DNA from: Eledone cirrhosa
Lineage: Eukaryota
Assembly: GCA_964016885.1 (NCBI GenBank)
Contig: OZ024742.1
Span: 98,332,001 to 98,396,000, forward strand
Length of the DNA: 64,000 bases
Direction of reading: 5' to 3'
Shown: in pieces, positions 33,990 to 39,050 of the stretch
Layout: each line of letters opens with the position of its first letter
How positions within the stretch are numbered: position 1 is the stretch's first letter
Position numbers and translations under genes: made by a program
Notes under the pieces: model-generated
The model's input: the letters and a program-made list of their open reading frames with translations, nothing else
Database searches by the model: none
What the model was told of the DNA's origin: nothing

Positions 33990-34355
33990 ATATAACGAAG
34001 GAAATGTGGTAAGGAACCAGATGGACCAAAACGAACCGGAGTACTCAATACTTAGTGGGTAATAGGAAAAAAGTATGACCCCGACGGCAGAGCTGAAGCC
34101 GTTTCGACGGCTATTTCTGGTCCAGAAATAACCGTCGAAACGGCCTGAGCTCTGCCATCAGGGTCATACATTTTTATATATATATATATAGATATATATA
34201 TATAAGTAGAAGGGGTATTTAATTTGTTGGAAGTCCGACAAATATAAATGTTTATAACTGATTTAGAGCACTCAACAGTTGGCGGAGTAAATATTCAATG
34301 ATATTAAATAAATGGAAACCAAATATAGTTTCCATTTATTTAATATCATTGTATA

Positions 34356-34438
<83 letters not shown>

Positions 34439-34621
34439 CGAAGGGGGTGTGGTAAGGAACCAGATGGACCATAATGCACCAGAGTACTCAATACTTAGGG
34501 TAGTAGAGTGGGTAATAGGAAAATGTGTGACCCCGATGGCAGAGCTTAAGCCGTTTCGACGGCTATTTCTGGTCCACAAATAGCCTTCGAAACGGCCTGA
34601 GCTCTGCCATCGGGGTCATAC

Positions 34622-34625
<4 letters not shown>
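33990..34625. repeat. Two copies of a ~180-bp unit ending in a ~95-bp hairpin
   Basis: Units at 33993-34170 and 34436-34622. Each hairpin arm contains GAAA-CGGC(C/T)-T(G/A/C)-AGCTCTGCC. Confidence 0.8.
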
Positions 34626-34696
<71 letters not shown>

Positions 34697-34701
<5 letters not shown>

Positions 34702-35306
34702 AGATGGGGAGAAGAATACTGCAGGTTGCACATGGATAACATGTTATAAAATGAGTCCCTCATCAGTGATTTGCCAACGATCATAGATATTTCATTGCAT
34801 TAAAAATCATATACCCCACGTTGGTGCAATAATAACTAACTTAAGTTATTAGGACAATTAAACCGCGTAAAGAGAGTGAGACAAGTAAACAACAAAGAGG
34901 AAAGCTAACCGTAGATAGGAACCCACAGGCTACATAGTTATTCTGTCAGCATAAGCTGGGTGAATATATGAGCGCGTAGTAAAAAGACCTTTCGAGATGA
35001 ATCCAAATGTAAGAAAGAAGGAAATTGTATTCGTCGCGAACGGGGTGAAGTGAGAAGGGGAGAAACAGTGAGTGAGTCAGTGGAAGTGTGAGGAAGAGGT
35101 CAGTAGAGAGAAAGTGTTAACTGACATGACAGAGGGGACGAAAGAAAGTAAGAGAAACAGAGAGAACGAGGGAGCAGTAAGAGAGAGAGAGAGAAAAACA
35201 GAATCGCAGTTTAGGTAAATATATGTGAAAAAATGGGGAGAAGAATACTGCAGGTTGCACATGGATAACATGTTATAAAATGAGTCCCTCATCAGTGATT
35301 TGCCAA
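34697..35306. repeat. ~80-bp direct repeat (34697-34777 and 35226-35306)
   Basis: atggggagaagaatactgcaggttgcacatggataacatgttataaaatgagtccctcatcagtgatttgccaa occurs twice. Confidence 0.85.
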
Positions 35307-35367
35307 TATATATATATATATATTGACGAAACATAAGTCAATTGCATGAACTCATAATCCTTTATTT

Positions 35368-35423
35368 ACTGCTATATATATTTCGATGATAACCATTGAA
35401 TGGCTATAACCTCATCAGGCAGT
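35368..35423 (-). ncRNA. Intact type-I hammerhead ribozyme
   Basis: Reverse complement: ACTGC-CTGATGA-GGT tATAGCCAT tca ATGGTTATc ATC-GAAA-TATATA-TA-GCAGT. Confidence 0.88.
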
Positions 35424-35508
35424 TAGTCAGTTCTTAGATATGCCACCTCTGTGTTTTTGGTGTTGATGGTTTCAGAGCCTTGGGACATATATATATATAT
35501 ATATATAG

Positions 35509-35671
35509 GTTTTAATATAGATGAGATTCTACAGGACTAGAACTGTTTCATTTTCTAAAGAATGAAACAGTTCTAGTCCTGTAGAATCTCATCTATATTA
35601 AAACTTTTATACTCTGCTATGTATTGAGTACCTTACTTACTGTGGTTACCTCCGATTCAACCCGGAATAGC

Positions 35672-35675
<4 letters not shown>
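35509..35675. repeat. ~95-bp palindrome plus pLTR-like tail; related unit at 37970-38055
   Basis: gttttaatatagatgagattctacaggactagaactgtttcatt / aatgaaacagttctagtcctgtagaatctcatctatattaaaac. Confidence 0.85.
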
Positions 35676-35709
<34 letters not shown>

Positions 35710-35752
35710 ATGTATGTATGTATGTATGTATGTATGAATGTATATATGTTAT

Positions 35753-36406
35753 GTCAGGTCACTAGTTGGTGCTACTGGTAACAAGTATCCCAGTACAACC
35801 TGTCTCATGTTTGGGTCGTTGGCAACTAAACTGGCAACCCCACCAAGGTTTCTTGTTGAGGAGGGTGACTTTGGACATCCTGCAGGACTAAAAACAAAAC
35901 CCGTCAAAGGGCAAAGGTGCTCTTAAGAGTCAATGGCCATCCAAAATCACCGGGAGAGATGACCCCTTAGCCTTTGTCAAGGCAGAATTCTAGGAGAAGG
36001 AAAACTCCGATATAACAGCTGCAACCCTGATGGTATCTAATGATGTTGACTTGTTCTTCTTTTTGGTAAATATCATCTTGGTCAAGAGAGTAGGACTAGC
36101 TTTGTGCAGTGCCTTTGCTCACTATAAAAGCTTCACGGCACAGGCATTGCTTTATATCTGGAGATCTCTCTGCACCTGTCGTCACATGGTAACATGGGCC
36201 CAGCACTATGTGTCAATAATTGTCACAAGTGTAGTGTTTGTGCCAGAGTTTTTAAGTCGTTGGCTGGACTAAAAAGTCACACTCGTTCAGCGCATCGGTA
36301 GGGGTTCTTCTACATGGATATAAAGTAGTGGCCGTACTCGAAAACGAGTTGGCAGCCACCATGTATGTATGTATGTATGTATGTATGTATGTATGTATGT
36401 ATGTAT
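35753..36406 (+). mobile_element. Bipartite non-autonomous RTE-derived element (5' UTR joined to 3' end)
   Basis: RTE 5'UTR-like ctaggagaaggaaaactcc; 3' coding remnant [23 protein letters not shown]; (ATGT)n tail. Confidence 0.7.
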
Positions 36407-36759
36407 ACATAATCAGATATTGGATCGGGAGATAACCATAGTTAAATTGGGTACCTTAGTGGACAAAAACGTATTTTATATATATAAATGACATTTACAT
36501 TGCTAGTAACATTTCATTTGTTGATATCATACAAATGAAACAGTTCTAAACATACAAATGTCGTTGCTATATTATATATACATACTACTAGAATCTCCGG
36601 GCCGTTGTCTTCTCGGGTACGCATAGGCCTGTGCATTTATTTCGTAATATATCTATCACTATATATAACCGGGTGAAAAGAAAGAAAAAGATTATTGGCA
36701 CCGAAAATGTCACGAAATGGCACTGACATATTTTATCTCATGATTTATTTTATTTAATA

Positions 36760-37402
36760 CTAGCAGTAAAGCCCGGCGTTGCTCGGGGTCGCTCAGTAGC
36801 TGTGTTAAAGTTACAATGTTAAGTTTCTTTTTTGGCTTAAAGTCTGTCTGCACGCCTAACGAAATTTACAGATACATATATTTTAAATAAACTTATATAA
36901 TTTTTGCTTTTTTTTACGAAATATTTGCTTGTTTTACGTAGTCTTTAAATAGACTTGTTTTCAAGTAAAAATATTGTTTTAAAGGCTTTTAAATGGAAAT
37001 GAAGCAAAACGGAAGCTTAGTGTTCGAACTGATGAATTTTGCAGGTCAAAATTTTGCTGGCTCGACAGCTGTTCGTGTATTGTGTTAATGTCATTTTAAA
37101 CGCTGAGAAAGCCAGCGTAATTTTTTTAATTTTTGCACGCAGAAAATGTAAACAGAACGTAAAACGCTCAATGTAAACAGAACAAAGGGAAATAACTCGT
37201 CACTTACGCTCAAAAATAGATACATTAGATTCGATTTCGTCACATAGGGTGGGTCAATTTGAAATATTTTTTTTCCGATGTCTTCGCTAGGGCTCAATGT
37301 ACAAGTATAGCAATTTCGGTGCAATTCCGTCAGAGATTCTAAGAGGAGATGTGTGCCAAAAATCGATAGACAGACAGACAACCACAGCTTTATATATATA
37401 GA
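36760..37402 (-). mobile_element. Non-autonomous Helitron
   Basis: Reverse complement begins A|TCTATATATATAAAGC and ends with the hairpin cccgagcaacgccggg followed by CTAG|T. It carries an internal (CTGT)n and has no TSD. Confidence 0.85.
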
Positions 37403-37608
37403 TTACGACGTTTATTCTTTACCAAATACACCCTGCTAAATTAAGTAAACATGGGATATGAACCAGTAATAAGCCGACAGCAGCACGTAGGATAAAATTC
37501 ATACTCTTATCGATTTTCAGATAAAAAGACTTAAATACGATAATTGTATTTTCCGACGGCAGTTTGCTCGTGAATGAATTCTATTAATGAGGGCAGGTGT
37601 ATGTATAC

Positions 37609-37639
<31 letters not shown>

Positions 37640-37646
37640 CATATAT

Positions 37647-37739
<93 letters not shown>

Positions 37740-37768
37740 CTAGCTCTGACAGTTGGCAGGTGAACAGT

Positions 37769-37818
37769 GAACTGCATTGATGAAGGGTGATACTCAGAAA
37801 CATTAGTGTCCGCAGTTC
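37769..37818 (+). ncRNA. Type-I hammerhead ribozyme, C3U variant
   Basis: GAACTGCA-TTGATGA-aGGGT gat ACTCa-GAAA-CATTAGTG-TC-CGCAGTTC, with predicted cleavage after GUC. Confidence 0.75.
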
Positions 37819-39050
37819 TGATTACATGCCAACAAAAGAGAAAGAATGAGTGGCTCATTCTACTGACATGGCTTTCAAAGTGAGGCTGTTTGCATAATTG
37901 CAAACGAATCGAATATTATTATTACTATTCGAAAAGCTCAGATTACTTATATATATATATATATACATTGCAGAGTATAAAAGTTTTAATATAGGTGAGA
38001 TTTCTAAAGAATGAAACAGTTCTAGTCCTGTAGAATCTCACCTATATTAAAACTATATATATATATATACGTACATACATCCTGGCCCTCGGTAATTTCA
38101 GCGAAGTTGAATCTGTTGCACTCATTAAAGCAGGGTTCGAGTGTGTGGCGAGGCTGTCTTCTCCGGTCCGTAACTGAAACGCTTTATAAGATCCACTATT
38201 CCATCCCTGGCTGAACAATTACATATTTAGTACTAGAATATATACTATATTGCTCCGCGCAAAGAGGAAGATTGGATGGTCATGGTCAAATGGTTAAATC
38301 GTATGTCTCCTCAATAAGATTACACCTGGGGCTATAAAACAAAAAATCTGCTTAAAACCACTATGATTTTATGGAGATTAAATAGGATTCTGTGTTGCCG
38401 ATGCCTTTTCAAATAGCCTTCAGCTTCAGTTAAAATTACACCGTTTGCAATTATAAAGTTTATACCGTTTGCCAGAAGCTTGTTTTCATGGATTTCACAA
38501 GTGCAAGTAAATAGTGGTTTTAACGTATCTATTGATCACACTTCTGATATATTTAAGGTTTCTCGTGTGTATGCATTTATATATATATATATATACATAT
38601 ATATTTAAAGAGAATGAGAGGAGGAGGGAAGATGGATAGGTATATGCATACACATGAAAACTCTTTTAAATATATCAGAATGTTGATATATGGATACGTT
38701 GTAACCACTATTGACATGCACTTGGTGAAATCCATGAAACATATTAGTTTAACGCTTGAAATAGCAGAAAGAGAGAATTAACCTTTCGGACAACAGTCAT
38801 TCTTCAGAAGATACAGTTTGAAATAGAAGATAGATAGAAATAAAAGAGTGAGAAGAGAAAAGAACTGCGGAAAATGAGAGAAAAAAAGGGAGAAGAAAAC
38901 ACATGCGTTTTCAGTCAGCGATTTGTATACACGCACACACACAAACACATACATATACATGCATATGTATGCATACTGTATATGCATGTATGTAAGTTAT
39001 CCCATACGGGGATCATAGATGTTCATATTCGTTATATTATATATCGATTA

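What the first reader, a model, noticed from the sequence alone, without database searches (positions are those of the whole stretch)
34073..38055. Short palindromes centred on hammerhead stem II: possible snap-back priming on the ribozyme hairpin
Seen: at 34073-34170, 34526-34622, 35509-35605 and ~36510-36550 each palindrome arm starts with GAAA-[short stem III]-TH-like sequence directly outside a central hairpin. An example is tttc-ATTttctaaagAAT-GAAA-cagttc-TA-gtcc. The CTGANGA half is replaced by the reverse complement of the downstream sequence. A non-palindromic relative with a near-complete core exists at ~27415-27455(-): CTGATG-ATTTcaaacAAAT-GAAA-tagttc-TA. Inference: cDNA synthesis stops at the 5' base of stem II, folds back on it and copies itself. 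The ribozyme fold would then set the inversion point, a candidate mechanism for the inverted pLTRs of PLEs.
Basis: inference. Interest (0 to 1): 0.75.

Follow-up and report, generated by a model that had tools for sequence, protein, structure and literature searches.

The report
Penelope palindromes mark the RNA start
These short DNA palindromes are back-to-back stubs of Penelope-like jumping genes, a known shape, and their centres mostly sit at a predicted transcription start rather than on the ribozyme hairpin, so each was likely made when both ends of a cut chromosome copied the element's RNA to its capped end and were then joined.

Summary
The palindromes are real. They are head-to-head stubs of two Penelope-like element (PLE) families in (TA)n, and both parents carry complete type I hammerheads. 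The stem II explanation fails as a general rule. In family B, 107 palindromes genome-wide centre on stem II, against 4,498 centred just upstream of CUGAUGA. In family A the centre lies 16 nt upstream of GAAA, with 0 predicted stem II fold-back products against 167 window-type junctions. The hot spot lies at +45 (A), -6 (B) and -42 (family I) from the ribozyme core. It falls on an Inr-like A about 30 nt below a TATA-like box, and copies ending there often carry an extra G (B: 29 of 76). Either arm may reach further 5', and most junctions cannot form a hairpin. Best reading (0.65): two cDNAs, primed from both target strands at two start sites, run to the capped RNA end and are end-joined. Stem II supplies microhomology only in a minor class. 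The start site is predicted, not measured. Earlier scan notes reached a similar reading on other DNA.

The parts
33994..34175 (.). Family A (Hydra-type PLE) head-to-head stub 1. Tail-bearing arm on - strand (33994-34121), tailless arm on + (34121-34175); centre 34121; hammerhead GAAA at 34102-34105 (-) and 34137-34140 (+); (TA)n on both sides
   Evidence: tail arm starts +48, tailless arm +46, 1-nt overlap
34437..34625 (.). Family A head-to-head stub 2, same junction, centre 34573, tail on - strand
   Evidence: junction type counted 167 times
35509..35672 (.). Family B stub centred on stem II. Tailless arm 35509-35552 (-); tail arm 35552-35672 (+) starting at +7; GAAA 35564-35567; stem III 35568-35581; cleavage site after 35583; tail about 35605-35672. 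Minority class
36500..36555 (.). Decayed family B palindrome with zero-loop centre at 36525/36526; both arms carry loop II
37965..38054 (.). Family B asymmetric stub. Arm with partial tail on - strand begins at about +40 (next to the hammerhead cleavage site); tailless arm on + begins at +5; 4-nt microhomology
27400..27500 (.). Decayed family B palindrome centred just upstream of CTGATGA (core at 27450, - strand); belongs to the majority class, not a non-palindromic relative
34291..34356 (.). Family D PLE stub inside the finding's span, centred about 35 nt downstream of its hammerhead GAAA (counter-example)

Best explanation
The palindromes are short head-to-head pairs of PLE end pieces inserted in (TA)n, and their centres cluster at a predicted transcription start, so each pair was likely made by two cDNAs that were primed from the two strands of the cut target, ran to the likely capped 5' end of the element's RNA, and were then joined. 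Shown here: the two-arm anatomy with a tail on one arm; fixed 3' ends at two sites per family (A +105/+183, B +60/+129); a sharp 5' wall at A +45, B -6 and I -42; TATA-like plus Inr-like motifs at that wall; an excess non-parental G; symmetric junctions; each arm type also occurring alone. Inferred: that the wall is a Pol II start; that the G is the copied cap; that the endonuclease opens both strands and the RT starts at the two internal sites, as shown in vitro for another PLE (PMC11167929); and that joining is end-joining with 0-4-nt microhomology or small insertions. Stem II acts only as one source of microhomology.
For: (1) Position follows the promoter, not the ribozyme: 4,498 versus 107 in B; 15 of 15 fetched loci of the large class are family B with one tail. 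In junction-unselected sets the furthest 5' end lies within -2..+5 of the wall in 47 of 64 A and 24 of 38 B junctions, and at the 5' strand of stem II in 1 of 64 and 3 of 38 (one A row is a cut duplicate). (2) TATA-like box 29-33 nt upstream of the wall in 13 of 13 long B arms, 5 of 5 long I arms, and 28-31 nt upstream in 5 of 8 long A arms. In 4 of 6 reference copies (450-782 nt) the only TATA+YYANWYY pairing is at the wall; 2 of 6 have none. (3) Base before the wall in copies abutting (TA)n, hand-counted from the first 100 rows: B, G 29, parental C 23, T 18, A 6 of 76; A, G 16, C 9, A 5, parental or flank T 48 of 78. B's G against A's C as non-parental control gives p = 1.5e-4. (4) Symmetry: the tailless arm reaches further 5' in 28, the tail arm in 20, equal in 10 of 58 (A); 24, 11 and 2 of 37 (B). 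The 1-nt centre of the window-type A junction is 11 versus 8 of 19, and the stem II loop 10 versus 8 of 18. (5) A fold-back of at least 2 bp with a loop of at least 3 nt by the tail arm fits 2 of 58 A and 2 of 37 B junctions; insertions occur in 38 of 64 and 18 of 38. (6) Of 18 fetched loci ending at the wall, 16 show no inverted partner (8 with tail, 7 without, 1 other); in L345 both arms end at +45 with a TA run between them. (7) Three palindromes have multi-base different variants in their two arms (L081, L085, L329).
Against: The start site and the cap are predicted from DNA only. In family A the G excess over C is not significant (16 versus 9, p = 0.23). In family B one extra G could also come from a 1-nt fold-back on stem I, because the base after GAATCT is C; L333 fits that, L334 and the GG cases do not. 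The two arms usually carry the same subfamily variant, private variants included, as expected from fold-back as well as from one RNA. Small templated insertions (for example ATCAG in L336 and L337, and L035, L080) show that cDNA ends do sometimes fold back. In A the wall also lies in the 3' strand of the upper stem II helix, where an RT stall is plausible. The two B patterns differ in fixed length (24 versus 20 nt), so the 40:1 ratio is approximate; in the small unselected set about 4 of 38 centres lie in or around stem II. Families C, D, E, G, N and P had too few or too scattered ends to show a wall, and C, N and P showed no TATA at -30. No ORF was tied to family B.
Confidence: 0.65

Rival explanations
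1. Hybrid: two cDNAs are primed, but one reaches the RNA end, folds back briefly, makes a short sense strand, and that strand anneals to the other cDNA (snap-back-assisted joining).
For: Templated junction insertions. Arms usually identical. The exact stem II register class with a foldable 4-nt loop. Snap-back after full-length cDNA is documented for R2 proteins (PMC11371274, passages). It allows either orientation.
Against: The commonest junctions have 0-2-nt loops or are blunt. Only 5 of 58 A and 6 of 37 B junctions fit a fold-back by either arm. The cDNA stem II hairpin is weak (-1.9 kcal/mol for the 37-nt piece, z -0.55, absent from the centroid).
Confidence: 0.15
2. The wall is an RT stall or an RNA processing end, not a capped transcription start; the arms are still two cDNAs.
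For: In A the wall is in the 3' strand of the upper stem II helix. The G excess in A is weak. Two of 38 B arms begin at or next to the hammerhead cleavage site (L259, window 37999).
Against: In B the wall is on the 5' strand of stem I, whose partner has already been copied, and in I it is 42 nt upstream of the ribozyme. TATA+Inr pairing is unique at the wall in 4 of 6 references. G excess in B. Arms primed 70-80 nt apart end at the same base, which excludes a length ruler.
Confidence: 0.1
3. One cDNA snaps back near the RNA end and is copied to the internal site; later deletions at the palindrome centre, or a free palindromic intermediate, scramble the orientation.
For: Arm identity. Self-priming was proposed for PLE junction palindromes (PMC3846280). 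Long palindromes are known to lose their centres (own knowledge).
Against: Tailless arms occur alone and end at the same wall. Spacers of 150-680 nt in tailless-arm orientation (L010, L045, L078, L259, window 10389-11773). Three discordant arm pairs. The same short junctions recur in both orientations and on different subfamilies.
Confidence: 0.06
4. One reading: cDNA stops at the 5' base of stem II, folds on it and copies itself, so the ribozyme sets the inversion point.
For: 107 B loci centred on stem II, 27 of 50 listed in exact register. The window's 35509 junction has its spacer in the compatible orientation.
Against: About 2% of the size of the upstream class. 0 products in A. Loop orientation 8 versus 10. 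Centres of other families lie 38-65 nt upstream of the core or downstream of GAAA.
Confidence: 0.04

Closest known systems
EN+ Penelope-like element insertions with an inverted 5'-truncated pLTR, a tail and a junction palindrome (PMC3846280, PMC8557442)
   Same: Head-to-head arms, tail on one arm, (TA)n targets, hammerhead in the pLTR.
   Different: Here the units are tiny (130-190 nt) and number in the thousands, the tails are about 70-80 nt instead of 30-40, and the centres map to a predicted promoter start. PMC3846280 proposed self-priming, possibly on an antisense template; the symmetry found here favours two cDNAs.
Hydra clade of C-terminal EN+ PLEs (PMC8557442)
   Same: Family A ORF end shows a CxCX5C linker, no CCHH, CxxC before the conserved E, CxH after the conserved N; canonical hammerhead; (TA)n target.
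   Different: No phylogeny was run; Pfam gave no hit to the family A fragment; family B's ORF was not found.
Poseidon PAc of Anolis in vitro (PMC11167929)
   Same: Both target strands cut and extended; two internal RT start sites that define the tail; hammerhead cleavage not needed.
   Different: That main text describes no inverted product and does not tie the inversion centre to the RNA 5' end; different clade.
LINE-1 twin priming and the cap-derived 5' G (PMC2912911, PMC11702581)
   Same: Two target-primed cDNAs joined with short microhomology; extra G at complete 5' ends.
   Different: In L1 the second cDNA starts where the first stops, so nothing is duplicated. Here both cDNAs cover the same RNA stretch and give a palindrome.
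cDNA snap-back at 5' junctions of R2-protein insertions (PMC11371274)
   Same: Antisense element sequence at the 5' junction, often after full-length cDNA.
   Different: One cDNA, fixed orientation; here both orientations, and a fixed second start site.

Membership tests
EN+ PLE (family A) | Single ORF with RT and C-terminal GIY-YIG-type endonuclease upstream of the pLTR | tested here: inconclusive
   Broken ORFs with RT-like and GIY-YIG-like motifs lie upstream in L107 and L137. The fragment is 43% identical to a 727-aa ORF in L093 and aligns in register, only weakly (E 0.02), with a Pfam GIY-YIG hit in the window. No direct Pfam or PDB hit.
EN+ PLE (families A, B) | Inverted 5'-truncated copy with a tail on one arm only | tested here: met
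   One tail in 58 of 64 A and 37 of 38 B junctions.
EN+ PLE (family B) | Linked RT-EN ORF | tested here: inconclusive
   Up to about 1.5 kb upstream in 13 loci of A and B showed no such frame for B; the long B copies end in simple repeats or inversions.
Hydra clade PLE (family A) | CxCX5C linker, no CCHH, CxxC and CxH flanking E and N | tested here: met
   Read in the L107 translation against the description in PMC8557442.
Hydra clade PLE (family A) | RT phylogeny | not tested
   No tree was built.
Type I hammerhead ribozyme | CUGANGA...GAAA...UH core with three stems | tested here: met
   Descriptor scan. For B, 65 of 65 cells pair and 2 stem I pairs change on both sides in 5 copies (few, related sequences). 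A has C3-G8 and U3-A8 versions.
Type I hammerhead ribozyme | Match to an Rfam hammerhead model | tested here: not met
   No hammerhead family at E up to 10 for either parent; minimum-energy folds recover the hammerhead only partly. This lowers assignment to a curated Rfam family, not the motif call.
Type I hammerhead ribozyme | Self-cleavage | not testable with these tools
   Needs in vitro transcription.
Stem II snap-back product | Junction in stem II register with one native loop in tail-arm sense | tested here: not met
   Not met for 34073, 34526, 36510, 37965 and 27450. Roughly met for 35509 (one extra T). 8 of 18 in the exact-register class.
Capped Pol II transcription start | TATA-like box at about -30 plus Inr-like motif | tested here: met
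   B 13 of 13, I 5 of 5, A 5 of 8 long arms.
Capped Pol II transcription start | RNA 5' ends at that base | not testable with these tools
   Needs CAGE or 5' RACE.
Non-LTR retrozyme | Tandem units, each with a hammerhead | tested here: not met
   A and B copies are dispersed single or inverted stubs; tandem units were seen only in other families.

The most novel reading that the evidence does not exclude
PLE reverse transcription normally begins near the capped 5' end of the RNA. A dimeric RT makes two short, strong-stop-like cDNAs from the two target strands, long insertions need a jump to the downstream pLTR, and the thousands of tiny palindromes are failed jumps joined at the cap. Inversion centres would then map PLE promoters from DNA alone, and in family A the start lies inside stem II, so new transcripts would lack the ribozyme core.
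Probability: 0.3. Interest if true: 0.75.

Novelty: new variant of a known kind. Interest (0 to 1): 0.52.

Why it matters
How PLEs form their inverted pLTRs is stated as open in PMC8557442, and self-priming was the published guess (PMC3846280). Thousands of junctions in this genome discriminate between models. They point away from the ribozyme hairpin and towards two target-primed cDNAs ending at the RNA cap, which links the genomic shape to the two start sites and two-strand extension seen in vitro (PMC11167929). The model makes two direct predictions: capped starts at three named bases, and centres that move with the RNA end in the existing in vitro system. The structures themselves are ordinary dead repeats.

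Tried and rejected
Rfam on the window gave only hairpin and miRNA-like noise in the 150 of 236 rows shown. The first own-genome search included the junction and over-selected window-like junctions; those central loci, and loci picked by junction patterns, were left out of the junction statistics. A3-type junctions, for which no full parent was held, were skipped, though about three slipped in as 'A?' rows. One search used the wrong strand and returned only itself. One search returned nothing (common words are skipped). Five G counts at A +38 were alignment artefacts across subfamilies and were dropped; one search aligns by subfamily. Sequencing runs: no RNA holder listed, no evidence either way; no reads were laid. 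Phage tblastn, PDB and Pfam on family A relatives were uninformative; the Atlas did not hold the proteins. Rejected: a length ruler from the priming site (arms primed 70-80 nt apart end at the same base); hammerhead cleavage as the source of the wall (cleavage is at +38/+39 in B and +85/+86 in A); one palindromic master copy amplifying (junctions are diverse and recur on different subfamilies and in both orientations). No count of intact parents was run as a positive control. Eight paper searches listed no paper linking PLE inversion centres to stem II or to a capped RNA end. Subscription journals and all supplements were not seen and may bear on this.
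Full report
Setting. The window is G000:C3:98332001-98396000 in a 3.0-Gb, (TA)n-rich animal genome. Positions below are counted from C3 of the hammerhead core (0). Data used: 140 stretches of 10 kb at evenly spaced places, loci from own-genome searches, and whole-genome pattern counts.

Observation. The palindromes exist. 34067-34175 and 34521-34625 belong to one family (A); 35509-35672, about 36500-36555, 37965-38054 and about 27400-27500 belong to another (B). 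Each unit is (TA)n, an inverted arm, a forward arm, then (TA)n. One arm runs 70-80 nt further 3' (the tail): A arms end at +105 or +183, B arms at +60 or +129. Long copies hold full type I hammerheads. In B: stem I AGATTC/GAATCT, core, a 3-bp stem II with a 4-nt loop, GAAA, stem III CAG/CTG, and cleavage after +38; all 65 cells pair in five copies, with two compensated pairs. In A: stem II is 56 nt long, GAAA is at +63, and the core is CUGAGGA or UUGANAA. Rfam does not recognise either. Family A continues upstream into broken RT and endonuclease-like frames with Hydra-clade motifs; no ORF was tied to B.

Where the centres are. Family B: 107 loci are centred on stem II and 4,498 just upstream of CTGATGA (15 of 15 fetched were B). 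Family A: 167 window-type junctions and 0 predicted fold-backs on lower stem II (no parent control). In junction-unselected sets the furthest 5' end is within -2..+5 of +45 in 47 of 64 A junctions (one row a duplicate) and of -6 in 24 of 38 B junctions; it is on the 5' strand of stem II in 1 and 3. In family I most short copies end at or within 6 nt below -42. Centres are therefore not uniform, but they do not follow stem II.

What the wall is. The three walls fall on TT[A]GTCC, CC[A]GATT or CC[A]GCTT, and CC[A]GATG. A TATA-like box lies 29-33 nt upstream in 13 of 13 long B arms and 5 of 5 I arms, and 28-31 nt upstream in 5 of 8 A arms. In 4 of 6 reference copies the only TATA+YYANWYY pairing is at the wall; in 2 there is none. 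Copies whose 5' end abuts (TA)n carry, before that A, G 29, C 23, T 18, A 6 of 76 in B (parent C) and G 16, C 9, A 5, T 48 of 78 in A (parent T); these are hand counts of distinct loci in the first 100 rows. An extra G at complete 5' ends is the cap signature in L1 (PMC11702581, PMC2912911), and Penelope's promoter and start lie in the pLTR (PMC2377424). Against: the A excess is not significant (p = 0.23); in B a 1-nt fold-back on stem I could also give G; families C, N and P show no TATA at -30; no RNA end was measured.

One cDNA or two. Fold-back of a cDNA primed at the tail requires the tail arm to reach furthest 5' and a foldable loop. Found: tailless arm further in 28, tail arm in 20, equal in 10 of 58 (A); 24, 11 and 2 of 37 (B). 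A fold-back of at least 2 bp with a loop of at least 3 nt fits 2 of 58 and 2 of 37 for the tail arm, and 5 and 6 for either arm. The window-type A junction has a 1-nt centre, in 11 versus 8 orientation (19 of 20 fetched had one tail). In the stem II class, 27 of 50 listed loci are in exact register; of the 22 fetched, 8 have the loop in tail-arm sense, 10 in the other sense, and 4 could not be oriented. Both arm types occur alone and end at the same wall, and L345 has two such arms separated by a TA run. Against: arms nearly always share the subfamily variant, with three clear exceptions among about 60 A pairs listed, and some insertions are templated by short fold-backs.

Mechanism. Most likely (0.65): the endonuclease opens (TA)n on both strands, the RT starts at the two internal sites, both cDNAs run to the capped RNA end or stop shortly before it, and the ends are joined blunt, by 1-4-nt microhomology, or with a small insertion. 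Two-strand extension and two start sites were shown in vitro for PAc (PMC11167929); their use here, the cap and the joining pathway are inferred. Stem II contributes microhomology in a small class. Rivals: snap-back-assisted joining of two cDNAs (0.15), stall or processing end instead of a promoter (0.10), single snap-back later scrambled (0.06), stem II snap-back as the rule (0.04).

Comparison and novelty. The shape is known, and self-priming was proposed for it (PMC3846280, PMC8557442). Eight searches listed no paper tying the centre to a capped RNA end. Earlier notes of this scan reached similar readings on other DNA; my reading was written before that look-up, and those notes are not independent support. 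What I saw of each paper: PMC11167929, parts 1-2 of 4 (all main text); PMC3846280, part 2 of 5 and passages; 10.64898/2026.07.22.740005, part 1 of 5; PMC8557442, PMC2377424, PMC2912911, PMC11702581 and PMC11371274, passages only; no supplements. Inr, TATA spacing, YY1 and hammerhead numbering are from my own knowledge, and the family letters are my labels.

Verdict. Observation partly confirmed; interpretation supported only for a minor class; new variant of a known kind; interest 0.52.

Noticed in passing
window 10389-11773 and 45263-45793: Family C PLE inverted insertions. The first holds a GIY-YIG frame (10591-11262, Pfam E 1e-4) in the tailless arm, which reaches 679 nt further 5' than the tail arm. 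The second is centred at -64, just before an AAAATGGCG word (YY1-like, recalled).
   Followed up: partly
L107:4889, L137, L063, L153:7005 (families A, I): Hammerhead cores with U3-A8 in place of C3-G8; family A has both versions. In A the 5' strand of stem II doubles as the TATA-like box.
   Followed up: partly
L162 (about 3400, - strand), L160 (about 1150, - strand), window 48455 (-): Hammerhead-bearing head-to-tail repeats (unit about 240 nt in L162) that look like non-LTR retrozymes.
   Followed up: no
L160:3600-6100, L162:4000-4700: Family G hammerhead units in arrays of about 450 nt, mixed with inverted copies and family H.
   Followed up: no
window 33024-33335: Near-perfect palindrome with 154-nt arms and a 4-nt centre; family not assigned.
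   Followed up: no
L259 and window 37999: Two family B arms begin at or next to the hammerhead cleavage site (+39/+40), possibly copies of cleaved RNA.
   Followed up: no
L019, L085, L304: Units with nested triple arms or with tails on both arms.
   Followed up: no
random 10-kb stretches: At least 15 distinct hammerhead-bearing repeat families appear in the sampled DNA of this genome.
   Followed up: partly
window 2899-5546, 19027-22156, 23696-26530, 28455-29333, 48274-49590: Several non-LTR retrotransposon frames (endonuclease/RT-like by eye).
   Followed up: no
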